From an uncultured Clostridium sp. (GTDB taxonomy: Bacteria; Bacillota; Clostridia; TANB77; CAG-508), in assembly GCA_900553945.1 (NCBI GenBank), contig USFR01000006.1, positions 52,948-116,947 of the forward strand: DNA of 64,000 nt. Reading direction: 5' to 3'. Both the position numbers and the translations under genes were made by a program. Shown here one piece after another: positions 1,982 through 17,214 of the stretch. The notes under the pieces are model-generated. The model had not been told where the DNA came from. It did not search any database and saw nothing but the letters and a program-made list of their open reading frames with translations. Each line of letters starts with the position of its first letter. The stretch's first letter is position 1.

Positions 1982-2020
1982 AAAAATCTCATGTTATTAA
2001 TTAAAACATGAGATTTTTTA
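1982..2020. terminator. Bidirectional rho-independent terminator between two convergent genes
   Basis: Hairpin aaaaatctcatgtt-attaattaa-aacatgagattttt with A/T runs on both sides. Confidence 0.6.
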
Positions 2021-2044
2021 TATATTCAAAGCAAATCTTTTATA

Positions 2045-3766
2045 TTAATTTAATTTTCCATAGTACATATCACTAAACATTCCGCCTTTGTCAATTAACT
2101 CATCAAATTTTCCTTCTTCTTCTATATGACCTTTGTTCAAAACAATTATTCTATCGCAATTTTTTAATGTAGTTAATCTATGTGCAATTGCAATAATCGT
2201 TGTATTATTTTCATCTTTCATTTTTTCTATTTCTGCTTGAATATGCTTTTCAGAGGTATTATCCAAAGCAGAAGTTGCTTCATCTAAAATTAATATTTTG
2301 GGCTTTCTCAAAAATATTCTAGCAATAGCTATTCTTTGTCTTTGACCACCAGATAAATTGTTTCCTCCTTCTGAAACCATAGTATCAAATTTTTCTGGTA
2401 AACTATTTATATAATCAAATATATATGCTCTTTTTGAAGCCTCTTCTACTTCATCTTTTGATACCTCTCTATCTATACCATACGTTATATTTTCATAAAT
2501 TGTTCCCGCTATTAAAAATGGACTTTGTGGCACTAATGCAATCAATTTAGAAATATCTTTTCTTGATAAATTATTTAAATTAATATTATCAATAATTATC
2601 GTACCCTTTGCTTTTTCCAGCTTACATATAGACTTTATCAAAGATGATTTACCGCAACCTGATGGCCCAGCAATACCAAGATAAGTTCCTTTATTTATAT
2701 CAATATTAAAATTATCAAGAATTACTTTATCTTTACTTTCTGGATAAGAAAACGTAATATTTTCCATATTAATCATTTCATCTGTTTCTTTATTTTCTGA
2801 TTTCACACTTATAGGAAAATAAGAAAAATCATTTTCTATTTCTGTCATTTTGAAGAAATCTGTTGCTAAAACAGTACATTCAGACACTTCATCGAAAATT
2901 CTATGTAATTCTTCTAATGGCTTTAATAATTGATTAAAACACAAATATGCTGTTAGAACACTACCTACTGAGATTATATTCTTAGTTGCTAGATATGTAG
3001 ATACACCAATAACTAAAACAGTAAATACTGCTTGATTAATAAATTTTAAACAATCATATACAGCCATTGCTTTATGATGTTTCATTTCCTTTGCTCGTAA
3101 AAATTCTGATTTATTTTCAAATCTATTTGTTTCAAATTCTAAGCTATCACATATTCTTATTACTTCAATACCATTTATTAATTCAACAATAGTTCCGTCC
3201 ATTTCAGATTTACTATTTAAAAGTTCAACTCTAATTCCCTTCTGACTTTTAATCTGTTTCAAAACTATAAAAACTCCAATTGGGATTACTAACATCATAG
3301 GTAAAGCTAATGCTATTGGTAACGTTATAAAAATAGTAATAATTGCTGCTATACTATTGAATATAGCTGGAGCAAAATCCATAAACAACAATTTTTCCAA
3401 TTTTATTGTTCCATCAAGACATCTATTTAACCTTCCATGAATATTTCCAGTCATATTTTTTCTGAAATATGATAATGGAGCCATTAAAAGAGATTTTATA
3501 ACAATTCCTCTTGCTTTTTTTTCTGTCCTAGTTGCTGTATCCTCAACTAAAACTCTTCTTACAATTTTTATTATTTCATTAACTACATTGACTATTAGTA
3601 TAAAAATAAGAAATGGTATTACTTTTTCAAACGAAATTGAATCCTTAGATAAAATATCATCTGTTAACCATCCTATAGCTTTAGGAGTCATCTGTGCTAA
3701 TATTGCTGAAATTATCATTATCATAATAATTATTATAAATCTTATTTTCTGCTTTTTATCTAACAA
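2045..3766 (-). CDS. ABC transporter, fused permease/ATP-binding exporter (MsbA/LmrA type)
   Basis: N-terminal six-TM region; Walker A GPSGCGKSS, ABC signature LSGGQRQR, Walker B ILILDEAT. Confidence 0.85.
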   Translation of the reverse strand: MLDKKQKIRFIIIIMIMIISAILAQMTPKAIGWLTDDILSKDSISFEKVIPFLIFILIVNVVNEIIKIVRRVLVEDTATRTEKKARGIVIKSLLMAPLSYFRKNMTGNIHGRLNRCLDGTIKLEKLLFMDFAPAIFNSIAAIITIFITLPIALALPMMLVIPIGVFIVLKQIKSQKGIRVELLNSKSEMDGTIVELINGIEVIRICDSLEFETNRFENKSEFLRAKEMKHHKAMAVYDCLKFINQAVFTVLVIGVSTYLATKNIISVGSVLTAYLCFNQLLKPLEELHRIFDEVSECTVLATDFFKMTEIENDFSYFPISVKSENKETDEMINMENITFSYPESKDKVILDNFNIDINKGTYLGIAGPSGCGKSSLIKSICKLEKAKGTIIIDNINLNNLSRKDISKLIALVPQSPFLIAGTIYENITYGIDREVSKDEVEEASKRAYIFDYINSLPEKFDTMVSEGGNNLSGGQRQRIAIARIFLRKPKILILDEATSALDNTSEKHIQAEIEKMKDENNTTIIAIAHRLTTLKNCDRIIVLNKGHIEEEGKFDELIDKGGMFSDMYYGKLN

Positions 3767-3978
3767 TTTATATATTTTCTTTAAAACATTCGATAAATTA
3801 TTTTTTTCATATTTACTCCTTTTAATTTAAATTACATTATATATTATAACATAAAACTATCTAAAACACCAATTTATCCGAATGCTATATTTTTTTACAT
3901 TTCATGTCATCAAGCTCTATTAATTACTTTAATATCTAACAATTTATTTCGTATACCACTTGATATATTTTATCAATT

Positions 3979-5343
3979 TTAGTTTATATCATCATTTTGT
4001 ATAACTTTTTTCTCTAATTTTTGAGCAAGTTTTTCTAGTTCTTCATCCCCTGTTTCATCAGCAAACTTTCTTGCCATAGTTTTATTTTTAGAAACTAATT
4101 TTTTTATAGTTAAATCATTCGCTTTATCATTTGCTAATCGAAGATTTCTGTCACTACTTACAAGAGCATCCTTTATTTTTTGAAGATGATCTATTGACTT
4201 ATCTATTTCTTCTATTGCCTCATTAAATTTTCTTGATGCTAACATATAATTTCTGCTAAATGCATCTTTAAATTTATTCATATTATCTTCGAAATTTGAA
4301 ATATCAATATTGGTATTTTTCATTTCAATCATTTGTTTTTTATATTGCAATGAATTCATTGATGCAGTTCGTAGCAAAGTGATAATAGGTATAAATGATT
4401 GTGGACGAATTACATACATTTTTTCATATCTATGTGATACATCAGTAATTCCAGCATTATAAAGTTCATTATCTTTTTCTAATAAAGAAACTAACACTGC
4501 ATATTCGCAATTCTTTTCTTTTCTATCTTTATCAAGTTCTTTGAAAAAATCCTCATTTTTATGTTTAGTAGCTGTTTCATCATTTTCGTTTTTCATTTCG
4601 AACATAATAGAAACTATTTCAACACCGTCATCATCATAATCTCTAAATATAAAATCACCTTTAGATCCTGTTTTAGCATCATTATCTTTTTCAAAATATG
4701 CATTTGAGAACAAAGGTCTTAATCTATTAAACTCAACATTGCAATGTTGTTCTAAGGTTTCTCCCACCATTTTTGTTGATAATGATGTTTTTAAGTCTTT
4801 ATAATATTCTATCATTTCATCTTTTTGTTTTAATTGATTATCATAACTTAATATAAGATTTTTTTCGTTTATTTCTTGCTCTTTTTTATTAAGATTAATC
4901 TGATTCTTCAAAGACTCTATGTCTTTATCTTTTTCATTTATTGCATCTTTAATAGCCATTTGATCTTTTGATTTCTGAACAATTAAATCAGATTGTAATT
5001 TTGTATTTTCATTTGTTAATTCATTTATTTTATCATTTAATTTTTTCTCTACTTCATTTCGAGTAGACATCTCTATATTTCTTTTCTCTTTTTCACTTTC
5101 TTGCAATTTGTTTTGAGCTGTTATTAATTCTAGTTTTAATGAATTAATTTCTTCTTGCATTTTCTTTTCTGTATTAACTTCTGCAAGTTTTACTGCATTT
5201 TCTTTTTCAGAATTAAATTGCTTAATTCTTATATCTAGTTCCTTCTCAAACTCATGATTTTTTATTTGCTTAACTATTGATTCATAATCTGTTTCATTTA
5301 TCGTAAATGCTTTTCCACAATGTGGACATTTAATTTCATTCAT
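3979..5343 (-). CDS. DUF2130/RmuC-like protein: N-terminal Zn-ribbon, long coiled coil, C-terminal PD-(D/E)xK-like nuclease fold
   Basis: CPHCGKAF zinc ribbon at the N-terminus. About 250 aa of heptad-like E/K/Q/L-rich sequence. C-terminal GDFIFRDYDDDGVEIVSIMFEMKNE ... EYAVLVS matches a D...ExK restriction-endonuclease-like motif. Confidence 0.6.
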   Translation of the reverse strand: MNEIKCPHCGKAFTINETDYESIVKQIKNHEFEKELDIRIKQFNSEKENAVKLAEVNTEKKMQEEINSLKLELITAQNKLQESEKEKRNIEMSTRNEVEKKLNDKINELTNENTKLQSDLIVQKSKDQMAIKDAINEKDKDIESLKNQINLNKKEQEINEKNLILSYDNQLKQKDEMIEYYKDLKTSLSTKMVGETLEQHCNVEFNRLRPLFSNAYFEKDNDAKTGSKGDFIFRDYDDDGVEIVSIMFEMKNENDETATKHKNEDFFKELDKDRKEKNCEYAVLVSLLEKDNELYNAGITDVSHRYEKMYVIRPQSFIPIITLLRTASMNSLQYKKQMIEMKNTNIDISNFEDNMNKFKDAFSRNYMLASRKFNEAIEEIDKSIDHLQKIKDALVSSDRNLRLANDKANDLTIKKLVSKNKTMARKFADETGDEELEKLAQKLEKKVIQNDDIN

Positions 5344-5395
5344 TATATATTTTCCTTTCTTTAATTATTAAAGTAAAATTTATAATATAATTGTA

Positions 5396-5620
5396 TCATT
5401 TATTCAGTAATTTATCATATATTAATTTTGTGTTTTCATTTAAATGTATTTTTTCATCAAAAACATCTACACATTTTGGTTTGCAAAAATTTTTAAATTC
5501 AGAAATAGCTAAATCTATATTATTTGCATTAACTTTATCTTCAAATATTTTAATTGCTGTTTTCATATATCCTCTTACAGCACATCCTGCCATTGCTTTA
5601 AAATAAGATTTTTCTGGCAA
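5396..5620 (-). pseudogene. Probable gene remnant: a 74-aa ORF with a TTG start, and out-of-frame fragments upstream (5621-5728)
   Basis: No ATG start and no Shine-Dalgarno. The adjacent 108 bp holds short frames in other phases (...APHGVFRSNKIIITNPRVVTDEMAMDF*), suggesting a decayed gene between DUF2130 and the RhuM pair. Confidence 0.3.
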
Positions 5621-5728
5621 ATTCGATTTATATTAAAAATCCATGGCCATCTCATCTGTAACAACTCTAGGATTTGTTATAATAATTTTATTACTTCTAA
5701 ATACTCCGTGCGGAGCTTAAGTGCTTTC

Positions 5729-5953
5729 TCAATCTATTATTTCAGCATCATCTGGAATAGCAACATCATATATTGTATCACCACGCACTAACCATCTTAG
5801 TATGTTATCTTCTGTACTAAAGTTAAAACCGCCCATTTTTTGTGGGTCATGAACATTAGGATTCCAATTATTAGCAATATTTACTTTTCCTATCTTATAC
5901 TCAAAATCCGAGGCTCCAGATTTCGTTTTAAACATTACCTTTAAATACTTCAT
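5729..5953 (-). CDS. Small hypothetical protein (74 aa) overlapping the 3' end of the RhuM-family gene
   Basis: Protein-like composition (GGFNFSTEDNILRWLVRGDTIYDVAIPDDAEIID). The 26-nt overlap with the upstream gene suggests translational coupling. Confidence 0.45.
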   Translation of the reverse strand: MKYLKVMFKTKSGASDFEYKIGKVNIANNWNPNVHDPQKMGGFNFSTEDNILRWLVRGDTIYDVAIPDDAEIID

Positions 5954-6863
5954 TTGCTTGTTTATGTGAATTTTTTCCTTTTCCTTCTAAAACTTCATAA
6001 TGGAAAACTTTTAGGGCATTTTCTACTTCATTTTTCCAATCTTCCATATACATTGTTATGTTTCTCTCTGCATTATTTTCAGCAATATCCAAAAATAAGT
6101 TTACTAAATTATTTAAATTTTTAATTTCTTGTTCACTTAAATAGTTCTTGGCAATAATTACATCAGATTTTAAAATTTTCCCATCAGGTGAATTTTCCCA
6201 GGTAGTAAGTCCAATATTTTCTTTTTTAGAATTCACTCTTTTATAAACTATTTCAGCAGCAATGTTTCCAGTAATTGCATAATGAAATTTATTTTGAATT
6301 GTTTTATAAAAAGTTATTGCAGTATCACTATTTTTATCATAATCAATAGAACATTCAGCAAATATATCAGTAATTTTTTGATAAAACATTCTCTCGCTTG
6401 TACGAATTAATTTAATTCTTTCGAGTAATCTTTTAAAATACTCTTGATCAGATTTCTTTGCTTTTAAAAATCTTTCATCATTTAAAGCAAAACCTTGAAC
6501 CATATAATCTTTAATTATTTTATTTGCCCAAGTTCTAAATTTAATTGCTTTTTTAGAGTTAACTCGAAAACCTATTGAAATGATCATATCAAGATTATAA
6601 TATTTTGTATTATAATCTTGTTTGCCATTGTTACCCACATGTTCCATTTTGGAACATGTGCTTTTTTCTTCAAGTTCTTCGTCTTCATAAATATTATTTA
6701 TATGTTTCGTAATTGCTGGTCGTTTAACATTAAAAAGTGCGGCTAATGCTTTTGTATTTAACCAAACATCTTCATTTTCTAATAGTACTTCTACTTTTGT
6801 ATTACCTTCTTCATCATTATAAAATAAAATATTTTTCTCATTTCCAATTAATTTTTCTTTCAA
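5928..6863 (-). CDS. RhuM/DinD-family virulence-associated protein (N-terminal Bro-N/KilA-N-like DNA-binding region)
   Basis: NTKALAALFNVKRPAITKHINNIY ... DMIISIGFRVNSKKAIKFRTWANKIIKDYMVQGFALNDERF is characteristic of the Virulence_RhuM family. Confidence 0.7.
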   Translation of the reverse strand: MKEKLIGNEKNILFYNDEEGNTKVEVLLENEDVWLNTKALAALFNVKRPAITKHINNIYEDEELEEKSTCSKMEHVGNNGKQDYNTKYYNLDMIISIGFRVNSKKAIKFRTWANKIIKDYMVQGFALNDERFLKAKKSDQEYFKRLLERIKLIRTSERMFYQKITDIFAECSIDYDKNSDTAITFYKTIQNKFHYAITGNIAAEIVYKRVNSKKENIGLTTWENSPDGKILKSDVIIAKNYLSEQEIKNLNNLVNLFLDIAENNAERNITMYMEDWKNEVENALKVFHYEVLEGKGKNSHKQANEVFKGNV

Positions 6864-6995
6864 ATTAACATCTCCTAATCCAAATATAATAAATTCTTAT
6901 CTAATTAATATAATACTATTTTTACGAACATTTGTATTGTATCATGGATATACTTGAATTTCAATATTTTTACATGCAATAATTATATTAAAAAA

Positions 6996-7030
6996 AGTGC
7001 ATCCAGATTATTACACTGGATTGCACTTTT
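6996..7030 (-). terminator. Terminator hairpin just downstream of the displaced secA 3' fragment; probably the ancestral secA terminator
   Basis: agtgcatccag-attattaca-ctggattgcact followed by a T-run. It sits immediately after the remnant stop codon at 7047-7049. Confidence 0.5.
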
Positions 7031-7046
7031 TTATTATATTATATAA

Positions 7047-7136
7047 TTACGCATTTTTTCCACAACAGTTTTTATACTTTTTTCCACTTCCACAAGAAGA
7101 CTTTATTTGTGTATTATCAATACTATAAAATACTAT
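7047..7136 (-). pseudogene. Displaced secA 3'-end remnant (encodes ...[17 protein letters not shown]), the distal att-repeat of the integrated island
   Basis: Minus-strand translation of 7047-7100 reproduces the SecA C-terminal zinc-finger tail. It is 41/48 nt identical to the genuine secA terminus at 14458-14505. Confidence 0.7.
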
Positions 7137-7572
7137 CTATACTAATAATATCACGGATTATAGCCATTTATATTTATTGTATTATTAGTATTTATTTTGT
7201 ATATGTTTTATTATTTTTTGCAAACAAAATGCAAACAATGTTTACATTCGATTTTAAAATTATAATAAAAATGCCTAGATTGCAACGTACTTAACATACG
7301 CTTAGCTTGTAGCTACATTGTCTAGGTCTTACTAAAAATATTTTACTATATCGAAACTTGTATGTCAAACATTTTTGCTAAAAAATATTAAAGGTAAAGA
7401 CCTAAATCTCTACCTTTTTTACCGTTGGTTATTTGGCAGGTGTGCCAAATCCTGCATCTCTTTTGACCTTTTAAAGGTGTGTGGATGGCACTATTGTCCA
7501 CTTCAAATAACCTAATTATATTGTACTTTTATTATACAACTTTTATTCATTTTTGTCTAGCATTTTTTAGAT

Positions 7573-7956
7573 TTATTTTTCCATATGATTTTTCCGTCTA
7601 TTTCTTATAGTTTGATTCCAAGTTCTTTTATTTAATTTCATTAATGTTATTATTGAGTTTTTATTATGCTCATCATCTTGTCCTAATGCTAACTTTATAA
7701 CGACTCTACCATTCTTTCCTATATCATCAATTTCTTTTAAATATATCATTGTATCTTCATGTCTATTATCTTCAACTATATAGTCTGGATTTTCAATTAT
7801 ACTTTTAATATATGGTCTTAACTGTTTATATTCTTCTTCGTGGAATAATAGTATGTGTTCATATAGTCGTTCATCTGTTAAAATAACTTCTTCAGTTATT
7901 AACTTATCTTTATATATTCCTAATTTTTCTTTATCTAAATTTGTTATATATTGCAA
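7573..7956 (-). CDS. Hypothetical 127-aa island cargo protein, possibly a toxin/nuclease-like domain
   Basis: ORF with a basic C-terminus (RNRRKNHMEK). First gene inside the island boundary. No confident family assignment. Confidence 0.4.
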   Translation of the reverse strand: MQYITNLDKEKLGIYKDKLITEEVILTDERLYEHILLFHEEEYKQLRPYIKSIIENPDYIVEDNRHEDTMIYLKEIDDIGKNGRVVIKLALGQDDEHNKNSIITLMKLNKRTWNQTIRNRRKNHMEK

Positions 7957-7983
7957 TTTATTACCTTCTTTTTATTATAATAT

Positions 7984-8430
7984 TTATCTTACATATTTTG
8001 TATTATTAAAAATATCTAAAGAATATATTTTGTTTTCTTCAAAATATTTGATAAACTGGATGCTTGTATCATATCCTCTTAATTCATTTTCTGTCATGTT
8101 TTTAACATCTTTGACATTTAACCATTTTACATCCAATATCTCATCAGTATCAAATTTAATATCTTCTTCTAATATATCAGCAGTAAATCTTACCATTACT
8201 CGTGTTTCTCCATCTTCTCCATCAACAGAACATATCGGTAATACCCCTGTGAGTTTTACTTTACAGCCCGTTTCTTCATAAGTTTCTCTTACTGCTGCAT
8301 CTGTTATTTTTTCTAATTCATCTACATGCCCTGCTGGAAAATTCCATTGTCCATAACATTTCTTTTTTGCTTCTTTTACCATTAAAATTTTATTATCTCT
8401 TACTATTATACAACCTGCTATAACTACCAT
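7984..8430 (-). CDS. NUDIX hydrolase
   Basis: Nudix box GHVDELEKITDAAVRETYEETG (GX5EX7REUXEEXGU). Confidence 0.8.
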   Translation of the reverse strand: MVVIAGCIIVRDNKILMVKEAKKKCYGQWNFPAGHVDELEKITDAAVRETYEETGCKVKLTGVLPICSVDGEDGETRVMVRFTADILEEDIKFDTDEILDVKWLNVKDVKNMTENELRGYDTSIQFIKYFEENKIYSLDIFNNTKYVR

Positions 8431-8444
8431 TCTATCTCTCCTAA

Positions 8445-9248
8445 CTATAAAATTACTTCTTCTAAATCATTTGGAACATAAACATTACCTAAAAAGAATT
8501 TCTTTGCTTCTTCTATATATGATTTTTTTCTGTTTTTTACATCATTGTCTATTGTATGCCATAAAATCAAATTTTTAGCTTTCATCATTTCCATCTTTTC
8601 TGCCACATCCTTAACTACTGAATGATTTTTTTCACGGGCTTTAAAAATAGGTTCTTCTTTTTCTAAACAAAATGCTTCATGTAGTATCCAATCAAAATTT
8701 TTTATTCTATCACATATCTTTTCAGAGCAAGGAACATCTCCTAAAAATGCTATATTCTTTCCATTATTTAATATCGTTTTAAATCCATATTGAATACATT
8801 CATTAGAGTGTAAATCTATTACATCTATATCATATCCTATAATAGAAAACTTTTTATAATCTTTACAAAAGTTATATATTACTAACTCTTTATATAAGTC
8901 TATATGTACTTTATGAAATGTAGCTGACATGAAAGTATCTATTATTTCTTTAATTTCATCATCACAATATATATTTAATTTTCCATTATATCTTTTCATT
9001 CTATGTTGTTGCATTATATATCTTAATAGTGGAATAATGCCTAATAAATGGTCTATATGTTTATGTGAGATAAAAATATCATGTATTTTATCAATGTCTA
9101 TATTTTTTGACTTTAATTGATTTAATATTTGATTACCACTACCTGTATCTACCAACATATACTTATCATCATTTTCTAGTAAAAAACATGTACTATAACA
9201 ATTTATTGATATTCCTGCCCCAGTACCTAAAACTATAATTTTTTCCAT
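8445..9248 (-). CDS. MBL-fold metallo-hydrolase (RNase Z / beta-lactamase superfamily)
   Basis: Glycine-rich N-terminus LGTGAG, HxHxDH motif (SHKHIDH), and a downstream His/Asp-rich region. Confidence 0.75.
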   Translation of the reverse strand: MEKIIVLGTGAGISINCYSTCFLLENDDKYMLVDTGSGNQILNQLKSKNIDIDKIHDIFISHKHIDHLLGIIPLLRYIMQQHRMKRYNGKLNIYCDDEIKEIIDTFMSATFHKVHIDLYKELVIYNFCKDYKKFSIIGYDIDVIDLHSNECIQYGFKTILNNGKNIAFLGDVPCSEKICDRIKNFDWILHEAFCLEKEEPIFKAREKNHSVVKDVAEKMEMMKAKNLILWHTIDNDVKNRKKSYIEEAKKFFLGNVYVPNDLEEVIL

Positions 9249-9261
9249 CTATAAATCCTTT

Positions 9262-9789
9262 CTATTTATTCAAATAATATTCTAATATATTTCTATCCCT
9301 TAATGCTATAAATTTTGTGTGATATACAGACTCGTATTTTGATGCAATTAAATTATCAAAACATTCTGTAATTAACTTTAATCCATTTTCAGGAGTTTCC
9401 CATAATAATTTAGCACCTTCTTCTTTTTCTTTTTGAGTTACATTCAGTTGTTTTGTATCTTTTATAACTTTTCCTACAAATACATAAGAAATTTGTTTAA
9501 AATTATCAAATGTTTTATATTCTTCAGTTGTTCCTAAACATTCTATAATTTCTACTTCGCATCCTGTTTCTTCTAGCACTTCTCTTTTAAATGCTTCTTC
9601 TGGTTTTTCTTCTCCTTCTAATCCTCCACCAGGTAATTTATATTCATTTTTATTACTCTTATTAAAAATTGCAATTTTACCATCTTCTCTTATCACAATT
9701 CCTCTTGCACCTAATCGCAATCTTGGATTGTCCATTTCAATCGGCTGTTTTCCTATATCTTTATCTGTTATTTTACATATTAAATTCAT
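9262..9789 (-). CDS. NUDIX hydrolase (second copy)
   Basis: Nudix box GGGLEGEEKPEEAFKREVLEETG. Confidence 0.8.
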   Translation of the reverse strand: MNLICKITDKDIGKQPIEMDNPRLRLGARGIVIREDGKIAIFNKSNKNEYKLPGGGLEGEEKPEEAFKREVLEETGCEVEIIECLGTTEEYKTFDNFKQISYVFVGKVIKDTKQLNVTQKEKEEGAKLLWETPENGLKLITECFDNLIASKYESVYHTKFIALRDRNILEYYLNK

Positions 9790-9922
9790 ATTTTTTATAT
9801 TCTCCTCTTTTGGGATATTTTTAAGGAATTATATCATACTTTACTTTATTTGTCTCAATTTTATAAAAATTTTATATTTTTCTTATATTTTAAAGAGCCA
9901 GTAATTATACTAGCTCTCTAAT

Positions 9923-11200
9923 CTAATAAGCAATTTCATATTTAATAATATCTTCAATCGTTTTAGAACTCATTAAATCGTCAAATACATTACTTACATC
10001 TTTCTTGTTTTCATCAGTACTTGTTATATAAAAGTTTTCAGTAGTTTCTATATATTTGTGTCCCAAAATATCAGCAACATCTCTTATTTCTATACCATTT
10101 CTTAAATTAATTGTTGCATAACTTCCTCTTAAATCATAAAATCTACAATTTTTAATACCAAGTTCTTTATGAATTATCTTAAATGGATAATTTAAAATAT
10201 TTCTGCCAACATATTTACCATTAGGTCTTGTAAATACCATATCTGCTTTGTTTATTTGAAGGATATTACTTTCATTCTGCACAATTCGTTGTTCTACTAC
10301 TTTTCCATATTTATTGAGTACATCTTCAAAATGATAAGTGCAATATTCTTTACCATATAACTTTTTCATATACTGTTGTTTCTTTTTATAATTCGTTAGA
10401 GCATTATATACAGTTTCACACATATTAATTTGTCTTGTGCCTTGTTTAGTTTTAGTAGTGCCAATATACCATCTTCCTTTATCATCTTTTGGCTTATCAT
10501 ATACTGTATGCCTAACTTTTATAACTCTATTTTCGAAATCTATATCGTCCCAAGTTAAGCTACAAACCTCTCCTGTTCTCATTCCAGTAAAACAACTTGT
10601 AATAAATGCACAAGTAAAAGTATCATCATCTTTAAATCTATCTAAAATTAAATCAATTTCATTTTTATTATATAAATGTTTCTTAAAAGCCTTTTCATCT
10701 TCTATTTTTGGTAGTTTTAAAGTCAATGTTGGATTATATCTTATAAATCCATATACATCTGTTGCTATTCTAAAACAGTTTTTCAAAACTTTTAATATAT
10801 TTTTATAATATGATTTTTTATAGTTATATTTGTTGCATAAATCAACGATATATGAATTTAGCTTTACACTTGTTAATGAACTTAATCTATACTTGCCTAG
10901 TTCTGGTTTTAAATATTTATCCATTATTGTTTTATAAGTTCTTCTTGTATTATATTTCAAGTTTATTTCACAATAATTTTCATACCAGTAATCTAAATAA
11001 TCACTAAATGAAATTGCTTTTTCTTTAAAACTCAAACCAGTGTTTAAATATTCTGTATAAGCAATATTTCCTGCTTTAATTGCTTCATCTTTTGTTTCAA
11101 ACCCAGATTTATTTATAAATTTTCTTTTGCCATCTACTTTAGCTACTTCAAATTTATATTGATAATATTTGCCTCTTTTCTGAATTGTAACATTACCCAT
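9923..11200 (-). CDS. Tyrosine-type site-specific recombinase/integrase (int1)
   Basis: 425 aa. N-terminal SAM-like region. C-terminal catalytic region with R...HxxR...Y context (DLRGSYATINLRNG ... HKYIETTENFY). Paralog of the 12941-14212 integrase. Confidence 0.85.
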   Translation of the reverse strand: MGNVTIQKRGKYYQYKFEVAKVDGKRKFINKSGFETKDEAIKAGNIAYTEYLNTGLSFKEKAISFSDYLDYWYENYCEINLKYNTRRTYKTIMDKYLKPELGKYRLSSLTSVKLNSYIVDLCNKYNYKKSYYKNILKVLKNCFRIATDVYGFIRYNPTLTLKLPKIEDEKAFKKHLYNKNEIDLILDRFKDDDTFTCAFITSCFTGMRTGEVCSLTWDDIDFENRVIKVRHTVYDKPKDDKGRWYIGTTKTKQGTRQINMCETVYNALTNYKKKQQYMKKLYGKEYCTYHFEDVLNKYGKVVEQRIVQNESNILQINKADMVFTRPNGKYVGRNILNYPFKIIHKELGIKNCRFYDLRGSYATINLRNGIEIRDVADILGHKYIETTENFYITSTDENKKDVSNVFDDLMSSKTIEDIIKYEIAY

Positions 11201-11206
11201 AACTTA

Positions 11207-11452
11207 TTATCTCTCTATATCTTCACATATCGATATTTTTCTTATATTATCAATATCTGATAAATCATTTCCTTCATTTTCTTTTAAAAAATCTTCTAAA
11301 GTAGATTTAAGAATCTTTATACTTTTCAATTTTACTGCTTTAAGTTTTCCTTTTTTAACTAATTCATATATATAATTAGGGCTTGAATGTAATATCTTTG
11401 CAGCTTCTTGAGCTGAATATACTATTTGTTCTTCTCTTATTTTTTCTGACAT
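11207..11452 (-). CDS. Excisionase/helix-turn-helix DNA-binding protein (Xis-like)
   Basis: 81 aa containing AQEAAKILHSSPNYIYELVKKGKLKAVKL, an HTH_17/MerR-like excisionase motif. Located immediately upstream of int1. Confidence 0.65.
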   Translation of the reverse strand: MSEKIREEQIVYSAQEAAKILHSSPNYIYELVKKGKLKAVKLKSIKILKSTLEDFLKENEGNDLSDIDNIRKISICEDIER

Positions 11453-11717: not shown

Positions 11718-12314
11718 TTACTTTTGATGTGTTCCAGAAATTTTATTAAATACATCACTATCATCTTGTTTTCTTAAATGGTGCACTAATATAATCGCAA
11801 TTTTATTTTTATCAGCAAATGCTTTTAATAATGAAATTTCTCCATAGTCTGCTGAATAATTAATATCATTACTTTGCTTTCTTATTTTTTGTAAAGTGTC
11901 TATAACAACTAATCTTATATTTGAATATTGCTTTAATGCTTGTTCTAATTGCATTACCAATCCATTTGTAATTTTGTTTGACTCTATTGCTATATGAAAA
12001 TTAGAACCTATTTCATCAGTTAACCTAAATAATCTTTTTTGCAATCTTTGATGGGTATCCTCTAACGCTAAATACAAAACATCACATTGATTAGTTTTTA
12101 AATTCCATAATTCTTCGCCTTTTGAAACTTTAATACATAAATCAAGCATTAACCAACTTTTACCTACTTTAGGTGCTCCACAAAATATATGAAGTCCTAT
12201 AGGTAATATTTCTTCGATTATAAATTCTGTTTCGCCTAAAGATGTATATAGTAAATTGTCTGCATTAATAATTTTTAAATCTTCCAAGTTTTCCTCCTTT
12301 CTAGCAAGTAGCAT
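11718..12314 (-). pseudogene. AAA_25/RepA-like replication ATPase (primase-helicase family), apparently truncated at the C-terminus
   Basis: Walker A GAPKVGKS, Walker B-like VVIDTL and a VHHLRK sensor motif. The ORF stops after ISGTHQK, where family members normally continue for about 100+ more residues. Confidence 0.55.
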
Positions 12315-12940: not shown

Positions 12941-14212
12941 TTACAGAAATTTACAAATCTTCTCAAATTTATTTGCTGTCTCACTTTCCATCTTTTCTGT
13001 TACTCTCACATATATATTATAAGTAGTATCAATATTTCTATGTCCTAGCCTTTTTGAAACTGCTTTTATATCCGCACCTGATTCAATAAGTCTTGTAGCA
13101 TGAGTATCTCTAAAGTCGTGAAATCTACAAGGAATACCTAATTCATAATGTATAACTTTGAATGGATATTTACAACTATCAGTCCCCTCATATACTCCAT
13201 TTTTCTTTACAAAAACAAAATCTACTTCTTCCAACGCAACATCAATTTCAGAATATGCATTTATTATTTTTGTTTCTGTTTTATTATTATATGGATTAAC
13301 AACACTCTTTTTATAATGTTTCATATATGTATCGCCATAATTAATTTTATTTTCTTCTTGCTCTTTTTTATAAGTTTTAAGAGCATTTAATAAAGTATCT
13401 CCTATTGGTATAGTTCTATAGCTTGTTTCTGTTTTACAAGTTCCAAAATACCATACTGTAGTTGAATTACCACTTATATGTCTTTTCTTTGTACCACCAT
13501 TTTGATTCTTTTTTAGTATGTTTTTATTTACACTAATTGTTTTATTTCTAAAATCTATATCATTCCAAGTAAGTGCAAATACTTCTGCAATTCTTAATCC
13601 TGTACAATATGCAGTTAAAAAAGCATAATATATACAATGATTATTTTTAAACCTATCTAAAATAAGATTTATTTCTTCATTTGTAAATATATGAGCTGGA
13701 TCATTTGGTGGAACATCATATTTTGGAAGTTTCAATCCTATTGATGGATTTGTCTTTATTAAGTCATTTTCATAAGCATAAGTAAATGAGCCTTTTACAA
13801 CTTTTTTAATATTATTTAGAAAATTCTTACTAAATGATTTTTTGATGTAAATACTATTTATAAACTCTTGTAAAGTTGACCTAGTAATTTGTGATATTTT
13901 ATAAAAACCAATATTAGGCTTTATATGATTTTTTACAATACTACTATATGCTTCAATTGTATGATATTTTAAGTTTATATAGCAATAATTTTGTATCCAA
14001 TAATCTAACAAGTCTGCATAGCTCATATCACTTGGCTCAAAACCGTGTCCTGTATTAATATAATTATTATATGCAATTATCCCCTCTCTTTCTGCTTCTG
14101 CTTTTGTTTTAAATCCTGATTTGTTTGCAAACTTTCTTTTACCATCAACCTTTGCAATTTCAAATTTGTATTGATAGTATTTTCCTCTCTTTTGAATTGT
14201 TACATTCGACAT
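12941..14212 (-). CDS. Tyrosine-type site-specific recombinase/integrase (int2), adjacent to the secA attachment site
   Basis: 423 aa. N-terminus is near-identical in pattern to int1 (MSNVTIQKRGKYYQYKFEIAKVDGKRKF). C-terminal HDFRDTHATRL ... GHRNIDTTYNIY catalytic region. Confidence 0.85.
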   Translation of the reverse strand: MSNVTIQKRGKYYQYKFEIAKVDGKRKFANKSGFKTKAEAEREGIIAYNNYINTGHGFEPSDMSYADLLDYWIQNYCYINLKYHTIEAYSSIVKNHIKPNIGFYKISQITRSTLQEFINSIYIKKSFSKNFLNNIKKVVKGSFTYAYENDLIKTNPSIGLKLPKYDVPPNDPAHIFTNEEINLILDRFKNNHCIYYAFLTAYCTGLRIAEVFALTWNDIDFRNKTISVNKNILKKNQNGGTKKRHISGNSTTVWYFGTCKTETSYRTIPIGDTLLNALKTYKKEQEENKINYGDTYMKHYKKSVVNPYNNKTETKIINAYSEIDVALEEVDFVFVKKNGVYEGTDSCKYPFKVIHYELGIPCRFHDFRDTHATRLIESGADIKAVSKRLGHRNIDTTYNIYVRVTEKMESETANKFEKICKFL

Positions 14213-14457
14213 TTTTCATTTCTCCTTTCCTTTTTCGAATGTAAACATTATAATTTAATTCAAAAATAAAAATGCTAACACGAATGCTAACATTTTTATT
14301 TATTATATTCACTTTGTTTGCAGGTTTAAACTTCTTTATTTTCAAGCATTCCAGAGATTTTGTCCACTTATATGAAAACATTTTGCAAACAAAATGTAAA
14401 CAATTTGGCATGTTTTCATATTTATGTTTACTTATCTAATCTCTGAAAGTATTGATA

Positions 14458-17214
14458 TTATGCGTTTTTTCCACAACAGTTCTTGTATTTCTTTCCACTT
14501 CCACATGGGCACAAGTCATTTCTACCTACCTTAGGTCCTTCATTAACTATTGGTGCTTTCACTTTTTTCTTTTCTTCTTGAGCAAGCTCAGGATTAATCA
14601 TTCCATCAATATCTTCTCTACCTTCACCAGTAATTTTAACTGTGCTTCTTCTTTCATATCCTTCACGTTTCTTTACGCACATTAAAATTTTAGCTACCTC
14701 TAATTTGATGCTATTGATCATTTCTTCAAACATATCTGAACCTTCAATTTGATATTGAATAACAGGATCTTTTTGTCCATAAGCACGAAGTCCAATACCA
14801 TTTTTTAATTCATCCATGCTATCGATATGATCCATCCATTTTGAATCAACAACTTTTAATAAAACAATTCTTTGAAGCTCTTTGAATGGTTCTTCTCCGA
14901 TTTCTTCTTTTTTGGCTTCATATATTGCTAATGCTTTTTCTTGCATTTCAGCTAGTACTTCATCAGCATCAACTTTATCTTTCTTTAATGAATCTAATTC
15001 TTTTATGTTTAATCCGTTTTGTACTTCAATTAAGAAAGCAGCTGTATCAGGATTTTTCTCTGAAAGCTCAGCTCTATAAGTATCAACTATTAAAGCACAA
15101 GCTTCTCTTATCATATTTTTAATTGATTCTGTAACATCTTCTCCATCAAGAACTTCTCTTCTTTGTGTATAAATAATCTCTCTTTGAGTATTCATAACAT
15201 CATCATAGCTTAATACATGTTTTCTTATTGAGAAGTTTCTACTCTCAACTTTCTTTTGAGCAGATTCAACAGCTTTTGAAATTGGCTTAAATTGAATTGG
15301 CATATTTTCATCAGCTTTTAATGCATTATATACAGCAGTAACTTTATCACCACCAAATATTTTCATTAAATCATCATCAAGTCCAATATAGAATATTGAT
15401 TCTCCTGGATCTCCTTGACGACCACTACGTCCACGTAACTGGTTATCAATTCTTCTTGATTCATGTCTTTCAGTACCAATGATTTTCAAACCACCAGCAG
15501 CAATAACTTTTTCTTTTTCTTCTTTTATTTGTTTTTTGAATTTCGTTTCTAATTCGTTAAATGTTTTTCTAGCTTCAATAACTTTTTCATCTTTTGTTTC
15601 ATTATGAGCAGAAGCTTGATTTATAAGATCGTTAGTATATCCAGCTCTCTTCATTTCTTGCTTAGCCATATATTCAGTGTTTCCACCAAGCATAATATCA
15701 GTACCACGACCAGCCATGTTAGTAGCAATTGTAACAGCACCATATTTACCAGCTTGAGCAATTATTTCAGCTTCTTTTTCATGGAACTTAGCATTCAACA
15801 CTTCATGAGGAATTCCAGCTTTTTTAAGTAATTTACTTAATCTTTCTGATTTATCAATTGAAACTGTACCAACCAATACCGGTTGTCCTTTTTCATGAGA
15901 TTTTTTAATATCCTCAACAACAGCATTAAATTTAACTTTTTCATTTTTATATATAATATCGTTTTTATCATCTCTTGCAACTGGTAAGTTTGTAGGAATA
16001 CAAACAACATCCAAATTATAAATCTCTCTGAATTCTTCTTCTTCTGTTTTAGCTGTACCAGTCATACCAGATAATTTGTTGTACATTCTAAAGTAATTTT
16101 GGAATGTGATATTTGCTAAAGTTTTTTGTTCATCAGCAATCTTTACACCTTCTTTAGCTTCAATTGCTTGATGTAAACCAGCATTATATCTTCTTCCATA
16201 CATAATTCTACCTGTGAACTCATCAACAATTAAAACTTCTCCATCTTTAACGATGTAATCTTTATCTCTCTTCATAACGCCATGTGCTTTTAAAGCTTGG
16301 TTAACATTATGAACTATATCTGTATTATCTAAATCATTGAAGTTTTCAACTTCAAAGAATTCTTCAGCCTTCTTAATACCTTTTTGTGTCAATGTAGCTG
16401 TTTTGGCTTTTAAGTCTACAATGTAATCATATTTTTCATTATCTTCTAATTGAGCTTCATCTTTAATATCTTCTTCAATAATAACTTTTGCTTGTAATCT
16501 TTTTACAAAATCATCAGCTCTTTTGTATAAATCAGATGATTTATTTGCTCTACCAGATATGATAAGTGGTGTTCTAGCCTCATCAATCAAGATACTATCG
16601 ATCTCATCAACAATTGCATATTCTAATCCTCTTTGAACCATATCTTCTTTGTGAATAACCATGTTATCTCTCAAATAATCGAATCCATATTCATTATTTG
16701 TTCCATATGTTATATCACATGCATATGCTTTTTGTTTATCTTGTTGATTCATTCTTGAAATATTTAATCCAACAGATAAACCTAAGAATTTATATAATTT
16801 ACCCATCCACTCACTATCTCTCTTAGCTAGGTAATCATTAACTGTAATTAAATGAACACCTTTTCCTGTAAGTGCATTTAAGTATATTGGTAATGAAGCA
16901 ACTAATGTTTTTCCTTCACCAGTTTTCATTTCAGCAATTCTACCTTGATGTAATATAATACCACCAACTAATTGCACATCATAATGTCTCAATTCTAAAA
17001 CTCTTTTTGATGCCTCTCTTACAACTGCAAATGCTTCTGGTAAGATATCATCAAGAGTTTTGCCTTCAGCTAATTGTTTCTTAAAATAATCTTTTTTAGC
17101 TCTTAGCTCTGCATCTGTTAACTTTTCCATTTCAGGTTCTAAACTATTAATTTTGTTTACTATAGGTTGAACTCTTTTTACTTCTTTTTCACTATAAGAT
17201 TTAAATAAACCCAT
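14458..17214 (-). CDS. secA: Preprotein translocase subunit SecA
   Basis: 918 aa with DEAD-like motor motifs and the C-terminal zinc-binding tail [17 protein letters not shown]. Confidence 0.97.

What the first reader, a model, noticed from the sequence alone, without database searches (positions are those of the whole stretch)
7573..9789. Island cargo: NUDIX - MBL-fold hydrolase - NUDIX operon plus a small basic protein
Three tightly packed hydrolase genes are co-oriented with the integrases, so they are likely cargo. Two carry independent Nudix boxes and one an HxHxDH metallo-beta-lactamase fold. MBL-fold and NUDIX enzymes are the folds used by known nucleotide-signal-degrading anti-defence proteins (for example the MBL-fold Apyc1 against Pycsar) and by NAD/ADP-ribose salvage modules. 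On a mobile island this trio could act as a nucleotide second-messenger or NAD-derivative clearing module. That reading is an inference.
Basis: partly seen in the sequence, partly recalled or inferred. Interest (0 to 1): 0.55.

Follow-up and report, generated by a model that had tools for sequence, protein, structure and literature searches.

The report
Island hydrolase cassette plus RNase–RNA pair
The four genes are real cargo of a small mobile island inserted at the end of secA, but they form two unrelated modules: an ordinary-looking nucleotide-hydrolase trio with no specific link to anti-phage-defence enzymes, and a predicted RNase paired with a conserved structured RNA of unknown function, which is the more interesting part.

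Summary
**Observation.** Confirmed. There are four tightly packed minus-strand ORFs: NUDIX (9789-9262), an MBL-fold hydrolase (9248-8445), NUDIX (8430-7984) and a 127-aa protein (7956-7573). They lie inside a 7.4-kb island bounded by a 49-nt repeat of the secA 3' end (14457-14505 and 7046-7094). The block is 99.8% identical in contigs whose secA is only about 79% identical.

**Anti-defence reading.** Not supported.
- The MBL falls far below the Apyc1 family thresholds.
- It is as close or closer to RNase Z, ZiPD and YhfI in sequence and fold, but lacks the tRNA-binding arm.
- It is almost absent from phages.
- About 94% of related loci sit in integrase-free chromosomal arrays of NUDIX, HAD, HD, Ham1 and UDG genes.
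- The NUDIX–MBL linkage itself is real: 30 of 38 close relatives have an adjacent NUDIX gene.
- The most likely function is general clearance of nucleotides by hydrolysis.

**The small protein.** It is not basic (pI 6.2). This pair recurs in unrelated genomic contexts. In phages it follows MuF–PBECR2 fusion proteins. I infer that the RNA acts as an antidote to the RNase; this is untested.

The parts
14457..14505 (.). attL: 49-nt direct repeat covering the last codons of secA (…[15 protein letters not shown])
   Evidence: family D1 (88% identical to the copy at 7046-7094); a 66-nt, 100% copy in L001; the 17-nt core occurs only twice in the window.
12941..14212 (-). Tyrosine integrase 1 (423 aa), next to attL
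   Evidence: Phage_integrase E 3.6e-28, Phage_int_SAM_3 E 2.3e-14.
11718..12314 (-). Truncated AAA_25/DnaB-like ATPase (198 aa; 352 aa in relatives). A 1.5-kb deletion at 11729/11730 also removed the Mob_Pre relaxase.
   Evidence: window 11730/11729 corresponds to locus positions 6010/7520.
11207..11452 (-). HTH_17 excisionase-like protein
   Evidence: E 6.2e-12.
9923..11200 (-). Tyrosine integrase 2 (425 aa)
   Evidence: Phage_integrase E 1.7e-21.
9828..9856 (-). Promoter-like site (GAGACA-17-TG-TATAAT) upstream of the hydrolase operon
   Evidence: Consensus match only.
9262..9789 (-). NUDIX-A (175 aa), Nudix box at residues 55-77
   Evidence: Orthologues (243-325 bits) sit next to MBL relatives in L021-L035.
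8445..9248 (-). MBL-fold two-zinc phosphodiesterase (267 aa) of the RNase Z/ZiPD/YhfI class, without the tRNA-binding arm
7984..8430 (-). NUDIX-B (148 aa), Nudix box at residues 34-56
   Evidence: The MBL–NUDIX-B pair is 96% identical in DNA in L020, where there are no integrases.
7573..7956 (-). PBECR2 (BECR-fold) predicted endoRNase, 127 aa, with a conserved TTG start codon
   Evidence: PF18810, 39.1 bits against cut-off 27.1; phrog_29609, E 3e-23; invariant H34, P57, N100 and S101.
7531..7559 (-). Promoter-like site (TAGACA-17-TATAAT) for the RNA; the sequence is kept in L100 and L103
7428..7511 (-). skipping-rope RNA (Rfam RF02924)
   Evidence: 69.1 bits against gathering score 36.7, E 1.6e-15; folding z-score -3.9; 11 of 21 pairs with compensatory changes.
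7390..7417 (-). Intrinsic terminator (12-bp stem followed by a T run) closing the RNA
7046..7094 (.). attR: second copy of the secA 3'-end repeat and the end of the conserved island block

Best explanation
The region holds the cargo of a 7.4-kb integrative, formerly mobilisable island inserted in the 3' end of secA of an uncultured low-GC gut Clostridia bacterium. The cargo consists of two modules with separate evolutionary histories.

**Module 1: NUDIX-A, MBL and NUDIX-B, one operon.**
- Shown: the two Nudix enzymes have intact catalytic boxes. The MBL protein keeps all metal-binding motifs and folds like RNase Z, ZiPD and YhfI, but lacks the arm that clamps tRNA.
- Shown: in this MBL subfamily a NUDIX gene is almost always adjacent.
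- Shown: the family lives mainly in integrase-free chromosomal arrays of NUDIX, HAD, HD, Ham1, MazG, UDG and GNAT genes.
- Inferred: the Nudix enzymes split nucleoside-diphosphate-X compounds and the MBL cuts a phosphodiester in a small nucleotide. Together they clear non-canonical, damaged or surplus nucleotide species. This is house-cleaning rather than dedicated destruction of immune signals. The island captured the cassette as a generally useful accessory.

**Module 2: the PBECR2 RNase plus the skipping-rope RNA.**
- Shown: the pair travels as a unit of about 560 bp in unrelated genomic contexts. In phages the RNA follows MuF proteins that end in a PBECR2 domain, the position where polymorphic toxins carry their immunity gene.
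- Inferred: the RNA, made from its own promoter, binds and restrains the RNase. That would make it an RNA antidote, loosely like a type III toxin-antitoxin pair.
For: **Island.**
- att repeats.
- The 11729-7046 block is 99.7-99.8% identical in contigs whose secA is 78-79% identical.
- The same gene order occurs in 8 gut metagenome contigs, followed by variable genes.
- A related island (L101) ends int–attR with no cassette.

**Module 1.**
- Family matches.
- AlphaFold model with pLDDT 95.
- Fold matches at TM 0.81-0.82 to an arylsulfatase, ZiPD, YhfI and RNase Z.
- A profile of the family scores 64.6 bits against RNase Z and 25-34 bits against Apyc1 chains.
- The stretch between the RNase Z-aligned blocks is 45 aa here and 90 aa in B. 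subtilis RNase Z.
- A NUDIX gene is immediately adjacent in 30 of 38 close-relative loci. NUDIX makes up 54 of 149 ORFs within two genes, against 11 of 321 ORFs four or more genes away.
- Pfam census of the neighbours: NUDIX 53 of 145, then HAD, HD, GNAT, Ham1 and TudS.
- Array contexts.
- Only 5 of 80 loci have an integrase or relaxase nearby.

**Module 2.**
- Rfam hit at 69.1 bits.
- The RNA lies on the same strand, a few tens of nt (about 35-60) downstream of PBECR2, in all 9 further PBECR2 loci scanned as well as in the window, covering 3 further genomic contexts. These loci share an 85% identical 560-bp block while their flanks differ.
- Reverse test: 47 of 80 viral loci found with an RNA-only pattern have a PBECR2 ORF ending 83-188 nt upstream of the pattern (88 nt in 44 of them). 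Their PBECR2 domains are only 27-45% identical to the window protein.
- All 11 sampled pattern-hit viral loci pass the Rfam threshold, and three of them carry 2-3 tandem copies.
- RNA covariation.
- Catalytic His and Ser/Thr are conserved, as defined in PMC5512222.
Against: - No substrate is known for any of the three hydrolases. None reaches an equivalog threshold, so 'house-cleaning' rests on gene neighbourhood only.
- The same cassette type also sits on a second, unrelated mobilisable element next to variable defence genes. A role in conflicts between mobile elements and hosts would also explain that.
- The RNA lies downstream of the RNase, not upstream as in known type III systems.
- It is a single complex fold rather than short repeats.
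- 33 of 80 viral pattern hits lack a detectable PBECR2 ORF. Of those inspected, some sit beside Bro-N, DUF3800 or MuF genes instead, and a few look like chance matches in coding sequence.
- No toxicity or binding data exist.
Confidence: 0.5

Rival explanations
1. The NUDIX–MBL–NUDIX trio is an anti-defence module. It degrades nucleotide immune signals (cNMPs, cyclic oligonucleotides, cyclic ADP-ribose) or NAD-derived products, which helps the island or co-resident elements establish in new hosts.
For: - The MBL belongs to the same broad class II phosphodiesterase/RNase Z branch as Apyc1. It gives a full-length but weak alignment to the NCBIfam Apyc1 model.
- The cassette is strictly conserved on a widely spread island.
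- A related cassette sits on a second type of mobilisable element between its core genes and variable defence cargo.
Against: - It falls far below the Apyc1 family thresholds.
- Apyc1 structures rank 43rd in the fold search.
- It is nearly absent from phage genomes and from viral structure models.
- The family is mostly chromosomal, beside Ham1, MazG, UDG, HAD and HD genes.
- No NARP-type synthetases are present.
Confidence: 0.17
2. All four genes form one RNA-turnover module. A Nudix enzyme of the RppH/YtkD type removes 5' pyrophosphate or caps. The MBL acts as an RNase or as a 2',3'-cyclic phosphodiesterase. PBECR2 makes the endonucleolytic cuts, which leave 2',3'-cyclic phosphate ends.
For: - NUDIX-A's best NCBIfam matches are RNA pyrophosphohydrolase models (E 2.8e-9 and 9.1e-8).
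- The MBL is nearest to RNase Z in sequence.
- BECR RNases are metal-independent (PMC5512222).
- The four genes are co-transcribed with no terminator between them.
Against: - PBECR2 and its RNA occur without the hydrolases in every other context examined. The hydrolases occur without PBECR2 in 75 or more loci.
- The Nudix matches are generic and far below the cut-offs.
- The MBL has no tRNA arm and no beta-CASP domain.
Confidence: 0.1
3. The skipping-rope RNA is not an antidote. It is a substrate, a cofactor or guide of PBECR2, or an independent trans-acting small RNA that merely shares a mobile unit with the RNase.
For: - PMC5737381 found no ribozyme or ligand-binding activity and proposed a 'biochemically challenging task' linked to a nearby protein.
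- The RNA also occurs beside DUF3800, Bro-N or MuF genes where no PBECR2 is detected.
- Its invariant AAAAGAGAUG resembles a ribosome-binding site plus start codon, so it could be a cleavage-site mimic or a real target.
Against: - The RNA has its own promoter and terminator.
- It occupies a fixed position directly after the RNase domain, across PBECR2 domains that have diverged to 27-45% identity.
- It occurs as tandem copies in some phages.
- No conserved protein partner exists that could neutralise an active RNase.
Confidence: 0.25
4. The hydrolase cassette is itself a defence module that the island provides to its host, for example by depleting nucleotides during infection.
For: - Both Nudix proteins match the PADLOC candidate family PDC-S07 (E 9.7e-15 and 1.7e-11).
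- The region beyond attR is a variable hotspot holding RhuM/PDC-S05 and other defence-like genes.
Against: - The PDC-S07 match is generic Nudix similarity.
- The MBL matches no PADLOC model.
- There is no sensor or regulator.
- Most relatives sit in arrays of metabolic hydrolases.
Confidence: 0.06

Closest known systems
B. subtilis YhfI / E. coli ZiPD (ElaC) / short-form RNase Z (class II, MBL-fold phosphodiesterases)
   Same: - Same fold (TM 0.80-0.82).
- HxHxDH and the other metal ligands are invariant across 36 relatives.
- Similar size to YhfI.
- RNase Z is the best sequence match.
   Different: - At most 22% identity.
- 107 bits against the 293-bit RNase Z cut-off.
- No flexible arm for tRNA.
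- Conserved adjacency to NUDIX genes, which is not a feature of those enzymes.
Apyc1 (phage anti-Pycsar cNMP phosphodiesterase; PMC9117128)
   Same: MBL-fold homologue of comparable length in the same broad branch. Cyclic nucleotide hydrolysis is chemically plausible.
   Different: - Fails both curated family models.
- Weaker structural match than to cellular enzymes.
- Not phage-borne.
- The Apyc1-specific pocket loop and the E74/Y112 residues were not examined.
House-cleaning nucleotide hydrolases (MutT-type Nudix, MazG, Ham1/ITPase)
   Same: Intact Nudix boxes. Relatives of the MBL sit in arrays with MazG, Ham1, UDG, HAD and HD genes.
   Different: No orthology to MutT, NudI, RppH or other named Nudix enzymes; all scores are far below the cut-offs. 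The substrates are unknown.
MuF polymorphic toxins / polyvalent proteins with PBECR RNase domains (PMC5512222)
   Same: Same PBECR2 domain with the catalytic His and Ser/Thr. Phage relatives carry it at the C-terminus of MuF-like proteins of 500-565 aa.
   Different: - Here the domain stands alone (127 aa), sits on an island or the chromosome, and is not part of a virion module.
- A structured RNA, not a protein, occupies the immunity-gene position.
Type III toxin-antitoxin systems (ToxIN-like)
   Same: An RNase paired with a conserved non-coding RNA bounded by a terminator. The RNA occurs in tandem copies in some relatives.
   Different: - The RNA is downstream, not upstream.
- It is one complex 80-nt fold rather than short repeats.
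- The toxin fold is BECR, not ToxN/AbiEii-like.
- Nothing has been tested.
skipping-rope RNA motif (Rfam RF02924; PMC5737381)
   Same: Full-length match at 69.1 bits, followed by a terminator as described for the motif.
   Different: None in the RNA itself. What is added here is the identity of the partner gene in this lineage (PBECR2).

Membership tests
Nudix hydrolase superfamily | Nudix box GX5EX7REUXEEXGU, and a Pfam PF00293 score above the gathering score | tested here: met
   Both proteins carry a complete box. Scores are 56.9 and 79.4 bits against a 21.1-bit cut-off.
MutT / named Nudix equivalogs (MutT, NudI, RppH, NudC, ADPRase) | Score above the NCBIfam equivalog cut-off | tested here: not met
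   Best scores are 58.7 bits (cut-off 200) and 36.8 bits (cut-off 139).
Metallo-beta-lactamase fold hydrolases | HxHxDH plus the downstream His/Asp/His ligands, and the alpha-beta/beta-alpha fold | tested here: met
   HKHIDH at residues 62-67. H62, H64, D66, H67, D171 and H231 are invariant and H190 is at least 90% conserved in 36 sequences. Model pLDDT is 95.
RNase Z (tRNA 3' endonuclease) | Score above the TIGR02651/NF000801 cut-off | tested here: not met
   107.5 bits against 292.95, and 107 against 252.
RNase Z (tRNA 3' endonuclease) | Flexible arm (exosite) inserted between motifs III and IV | tested here: not met
   The stretch between the aligned blocks is 45 aa here and 90 aa in 1y44. 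No protruding arm appears among the model's secondary-structure elements.
Apyc1 (anti-Pycsar) | Score above the Pfam PF23023 cut-off (50 bits) or the NCBIfam NF041851 cut-off (400 bits) | tested here: not met
   15.3 bits, covering residues 3-72 only. 39.6 bits.
Apyc1 (anti-Pycsar) | Closest structural neighbours are Apyc1 structures | tested here: not met
   7u2r ranks 43rd with TM 0.73. An arylsulfatase, ZiPD, YhfI and RNase Z score 0.81-0.82.
Apyc1 (anti-Pycsar) | Broad cNMP hydrolysis including cCMP and cUMP; the pocket loop; E74/Y112 from the partner protomer | not testable with these tools
   Needs enzymology and a dimer model. The features are as defined in PMC9117128.
NARP1/NARP2/NARP3 NAD+ reconstitution pathways | Presence of Adps+Namat, Nampt+Nmnat, or PnuC+NadR-like genes | tested here: not met
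   None of the island ORFs scanned matches these families. Definitions come from PMC13464706.
PBECR2 (phage BECR-fold RNase) | [quoted passage not shown] | tested here: met
   39.1 bits against 27.1. H34, N100 and S101 are invariant and T104 is at least 90% conserved in 32 solo homologues.
skipping-rope RNA (RF02924) | Covariance-model score above the gathering score, followed by a Rho-independent terminator | tested here: met
   69.1 bits against 36.7, over the full model 1-80. The terminator is at 7417-7390.
Type III toxin-antitoxin | RNA antitoxin repeats upstream of an endoRNase toxin that processes them and is inhibited by them | tested here: not met
   - The RNA is downstream and single-copy here. 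Tandem copies occur only in some phages.
- Processing and inhibition cannot be tested here.
- The module may work like such a system but is not a member of a known family.
Integrative mobilisable element | Flanking direct repeats at a gene's 3' end, an integrase, an excisionase, a relaxase | tested here: inconclusive
   The repeats, two integrases and an HTH_17 protein are present. The Mob_Pre relaxase is present in relatives but deleted in this copy.

The most novel reading that the evidence does not exclude
The skipping-rope RNA, an orphan structured RNA described in 2017, is an RNA immunity factor for PBECR2 RNase toxin domains. It takes the place of the protein immunity gene, both for free-standing PBECR2 genes in gut Clostridia and for MuF–PBECR2 toxins packaged by phages. 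That would be a new architecture of RNase-toxin/RNA-antidote system. Separately, and less likely, the conserved NUDIX–MBL–NUDIX cassette could be a new signal-degrading counter-defence set carried by mobilisable elements.
Probability: 0.3. Interest if true: 0.75.

Novelty: new member of a known kind. Interest (0 to 1): 0.5.

Why it matters
**Hydrolase trio.** The value is mainly negative. MBL and Nudix folds on a mobile island are not evidence of anti-defence. This MBL family should not be labelled Apyc1-like on the strength of weak precomputed Pfam hits. It does define a tightly linked, uncharacterised NUDIX–phosphodiesterase pair that is common in human-gut Clostridia and worth a substrate screen.

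**RNase–RNA pair.** The link between a predicted toxin RNase domain and the skipping-rope RNA turns an RNA of unknown function into a directly testable hypothesis: RNA-based neutralisation of a BECR RNase. It also offers an answer to how phages and elements that carry PBECR2 domains avoid poisoning their own host cell.

Tried and rejected
**Candidate identities tested and rejected.**
- Apyc1 membership: rejected on curated thresholds and fold ranking.
- True RNase Z: rejected, below cut-off and no exosite.
- NARP-type NAD salvage: rejected, no partner enzymes.
- Named Nudix functions (MutT, RppH, NudC, ADPRase): no score near a cut-off.

**Searches that found nothing.**
- Plasmid collection searched with the 4.7-kb block: no match.
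- PBECR2 protein against phage records: one weak hit.
- PBECR2 protein against viral contigs: none.
- A third att copy or tandem islands within the window: none.

**Steps that failed.**
- The search for related loci with the divergent PBECR2 alignment failed because it had no conserved stretch. I therefore searched with an RNA-derived pattern instead.
- The supplement of PMC5737381, which names the protein associated with skipping-rope RNAs, is not held. I cannot say whether that paper already named this partner.

**Dismissed.**
- A weak CRISPR-DR7 match inside integrase 1 (13729-13762, E 0.09, below threshold): chance.
- The precomputed 'Anti-Pycsar_Apyc1' labels: on rescanning these are sub-threshold N-terminal matches.
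Full report
**1. What is there.** The window is low-GC DNA (about 25-30% GC here), with nearly all genes on the minus strand. Read in the direction of transcription, the order is:
- secA (17214-14458)
- tyrosine integrase 1 (14212-12941)
- a truncated AAA_25 ATPase (12314-11718)
- a 64-aa remnant ORF
- an HTH_17 excisionase-like gene (11452-11207)
- tyrosine integrase 2 (11200-9923)
- NUDIX-A (9789-9262)
- an MBL-fold protein (9248-8445)
- NUDIX-B (8430-7984)
- a 127-aa protein (7956-7573)

All family assignments are well above Pfam thresholds. Both Nudix boxes are complete, and the MBL carries HKHIDH. The three hydrolase genes are separated by 13 and 14 nt, each with a ribosome-binding site. 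They are preceded by a hairpin after integrase 2 and by a promoter-like site with an extended -10. One detail is wrong: the last protein has pI 6.2, so it is not basic.

**2. It is island cargo.**
- A 49-nt direct repeat of the last codons of secA occurs at 14457-14505 and at 7046-7094. Its 17-nt core occurs nowhere else in the window.
- In eight gut-metagenome contigs that carry the identical MBL protein, the order is always secA, int1, AAA_25, Mob_Pre, HTH_17, int2, NUDIX, MBL, NUDIX, PBECR2. Different genes follow in different contigs.
- The block 11729-7046 is 99.7-99.8% identical in contigs whose secA is only 78-79% identical. That implies recent horizontal spread.
- In L001 the secA 3' end is repeated exactly (66 nt) at the point where the conserved block ends.
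- The window copy has lost 1.5 kb, covering the 3' part of AAA_25 and the Mob_Pre relaxase.
- A related island (L101) ends with xis, int and attR and has no hydrolase genes, so the cassette is accessory.

**3. The MBL protein.**
- Its best sequence matches are RNase Z models (107 bits), but these fall far below the cut-offs of 252-293 bits. The Apyc1 model NF041851 gives 39.6 bits against a cut-off of 400.
- The 'Anti-Pycsar_Apyc1' label attached to this protein and its relatives in precomputed tables is, on rescanning, a 15-27 bit match to the N-terminal ~70 residues against a 50-bit cut-off.
- A 36-sequence profile scores 64.6 bits on B. subtilis RNase Z and 25-34 bits on Apyc1 chains, again over the N-terminus only.
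- The AlphaFold model is confident (pLDDT 95).
- Foldseek places an MBL-fold arylsulfatase, ZiPD, YhfI, RNase Z and BA1088 at TM 0.79-0.82. Apyc1 (7u2r) ranks 43rd at TM 0.73.
- Where RNase Z carries its tRNA-binding arm, this protein has 45 residues instead of 90.
- Only 5 of 50,697 phage records encode any relative. The best is 39.5% identical, on a 6-kb faecal contig. The best viral structure model reaches TM 0.65.
- I conclude it is an uncharacterised branch of the RNase Z/class II phosphodiesterase group. It is neither an RNase Z nor an Apyc1.

**4. Where the family lives.** A scan of one genome per species returned 80 loci. Nearly all are uncultured gut Clostridia.
- In the 38 loci whose MBL is at least about 52% identical, 30 have a NUDIX gene immediately adjacent.
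- NUDIX makes up 54 of 149 ORFs within two genes of the MBL, against 11 of 321 ORFs four or more genes away.
- In the 39 more distant loci the enrichment disappears.
- A Pfam census of the neighbours agrees: NUDIX 53 of 145, then HAD 13, other MBL 6, HD, GNAT, Ham1 and TudS. For distant relatives NUDIX is 6 of 145.
- An orthologue of NUDIX-A (243-325 bits) plus a second NUDIX precede the MBL in about ten species, in the order A, B', MBL.
- Typical contexts are long co-directional arrays. One runs NUDIX, MazG, NUDIX, MFS, APH, ASCH, PHP, MBL, NUDIX, Ham1, SPL, UDG. Another runs HD, GNAT, NUDIX, NUDIX, Ham1, MBL, Inositol_P, UDG.
- Only 5 of 80 loci have a tyrosine recombinase or relaxase within 7 kb.
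- There are exceptions. A 66%-identical MBL with four NUDIX genes and TudS sits on a different mobilisable element, next to variable defence genes.
- In L020 the MBL–NUDIX-B pair (96% identical in DNA) lies downstream of secA with no integrase, beside a NUDIX–inositol-phosphatase fusion.

The NUDIX–MBL linkage is real and specific to this subfamily. Its company is phosphohydrolases and nucleotide-sanitising enzymes, not phage or counter-defence genes.

**5. How the trio most likely works.**
- Shown: the catalytic motifs are intact, the genes are organised as an operon, and the adjacency is conserved.
- From established family chemistry: Nudix enzymes hydrolyse nucleoside-diphosphate-X compounds, and RNase Z/YhfI-type MBL enzymes hydrolyse phosphodiesters in nucleotides or RNA.
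- Inferred: the set clears non-canonical or surplus nucleotide species, and the island carries it as a general accessory.
- The anti-defence reading keeps some weight, about 0.17 in my estimate. The enzyme class is right and two kinds of mobilisable element carry the cassette. But no specific feature supports it and several argue against it.
- NAD reconstitution is excluded because the required synthetases are absent.

**6. The fourth gene is a different module.**
- It matches PBECR2 (39.1 bits against 27.1) and phrog_29609 (E 3e-23). [quoted passage not shown] H34, N100 and S101 are invariant and T104 is nearly so in 32 solo homologues.
- Sixty-one nt after its stop codon lies a skipping-rope RNA (RF02924) at 7511-7428. 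It scores 69.1 bits against a gathering score of 36.7, E 1.6e-15.
- The RNA has a promoter-like site (7559-7531) and a strong terminator (7417-7390). It is the only Rfam match above threshold in the whole 64-kb window.
- More than 120 protein clusters at least 84% identical to this PBECR2 exist.
- Their contexts differ: directly after secA with no island (L100); after an island's attR, so outside that island (L101); and between a radical-SAM gene and thyA (L103-L108).
- What these contexts share is a block of about 560 bp (window 7987-7426, 85% identical). It holds the gene, the RNA promoter and the RNA. All 9 of these loci carry the RNA on the same strand as PBECR2.

**7. Reverse test.** I built a pattern from the RNA alone (AAAAGAGATGNNGGN{5,14}CCNNCCAAA) and searched viral contigs.
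- It hit 88 stretches, and 80 loci were returned.
- In 47 of these, an ORF matching a PBECR2 profile ends 83-188 nt upstream of the pattern (88 nt in 44 of them) on the same strand. Usually the match is the C-terminal domain of a 500-565-aa ORF with MuF signatures.
- These domains are only 27-45% identical to the window protein. The pairing therefore survives deep divergence.
- All 11 sampled pattern-hit viral loci pass the Rfam threshold. Three of them carry two or three tandem RNA copies.
- Fourteen diverse copies support the fold, with compensatory changes at 11 of 21 pairs.
- Most of the other 33 loci hold true skipping-rope-like sequences; a few (for example L130, L143, L162) look like chance matches in coding sequence. 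Of those inspected, the RNA sits beside a Bro-N protein and a DUF3800 gene, or after MuF plus a small ORF.
- In L020 a DUF3800 gene occupies the position that PBECR2 holds in the window. This fits the remark in PMC5737381 that skipping-rope, drum and DUF3800 RNAs are tied to related nearby genes. The supplement naming those genes is not held.

**8. How the pair most likely works (inference).** The reasoning has four parts.
- An active RNase needs restraint.
- No conserved protein neighbour exists.
- The RNA is the only constant partner and has its own promoter.
- It sits where polymorphic toxins keep their immunity gene, sometimes in tandem.

I therefore propose that it is an RNA antidote. Its invariant GAGAUG segment may act as a mimic of the enzyme's target; this resemblance to a ribosome-binding site plus start codon is my own reading. 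It is not a member of any known type III family (wrong gene order, wrong RNA architecture, different toxin fold), and nothing has been tested. The alternatives (substrate, cofactor, independent small RNA) remain open.

**9. Verdict.**
- The cargo claim is confirmed.
- The anti-defence interpretation is not supported.
- The trio is a new, uncharacterised member of known hydrolase families.
- The RNase–RNA pairing is the part worth following up.

Noticed in passing
window 7428-7511 (-), with promoter-like site 7559-7531 and terminator 7417-7390: A skipping-rope RNA (Rfam RF02924, 69.1 bits) lies directly downstream of the PBECR2 gene. It is the only Rfam match above threshold in the 64-kb window.
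   Followed up: yes
window 7216-7239 and 14381-14404; also 7237-7274 and 14238-14275: A 24-nt sequence, TTTTGCAAACAAAATG(C/T)AAACAAT, is repeated just inside both ends of the island (96% identical). A looser 38-nt repeat lies beside it. These may be arm-type integrase binding sites.
   Followed up: no
window 11729/11730: Compared with eight related contigs, this copy of the island has a 1.5-kb deletion. It removes the 3' part of the AAA_25 gene and almost all of the Mob_Pre relaxase, so the copy can probably no longer be mobilised.
   Followed up: partly
window 9923-11200 and 12941-14212: - Two integrases with nearly identical N-termini sit in one att-bounded island, with no internal att copy.
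- The int1 half is 87-99% identical between contigs, while the int2-to-attR half is 99.8% identical.
- The island is therefore a mosaic, or a fused tandem.
   Followed up: partly
window ~2000-7046 (beyond attR); loci L001-L008: - The region downstream of attR differs between otherwise identical islands.
- In this window it holds RhuM (PADLOC candidate PDC-S05, E 7.6e-123), DUF2130 and an ABC transporter.
- Elsewhere it holds an APH–NUDIX fusion, AAA+ proteins, a DnaA-like ATPase or a DUF1016 nuclease.
- It looks like a variable hotspot.
   Followed up: partly
L014, L019, L100 and most of L036-L099: Uncultured gut Clostridia carry long co-directional arrays of small, unrelated enzymes: NUDIX, MazG, Ham1, HAD, HD, GNAT, ASCH, UDG, TudS, PHP, APH. 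The arrays have no nearby integrase. How they are organised and why they are clustered is unexplained.
   Followed up: partly
L100 4860-4895 and 5525-5560: Where PBECR2 and its RNA lie directly after secA, the module is bracketed by two almost identical hairpin terminators whose loops are in opposite orientation (one mismatch as reverse complements). This could be a trace of how the module inserted.
   Followed up: no
L020 8335-8886: A DUF3800 gene (Pfam E 1.3e-11) follows the 96%-identical MBL–NUDIX-B pair, in the position PBECR2 holds in the window. No Rfam RNA was detected beside it.
   Followed up: partly
L160 3317-3505, L167 6000-6309, L172 5678-5866: In some phage contigs, skipping-rope RNAs occur as two or three tandem copies after the MuF–PBECR2 gene.
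   Followed up: partly
L127 10210-10371: A FuFi-1 RNA (RF02986, 120.5 bits) lies on the same phage contig as a skipping-rope RNA. It is another of the four 'terminator-followed' orphan motifs of PMC5737381.
   Followed up: no
window 7956 (TTG start of PBECR2); L100, L103: The PBECR2 gene keeps a TTG start codon and the same AAGAAGG ribosome-binding site in all contexts read. This would fit deliberately weak translation.
   Followed up: no
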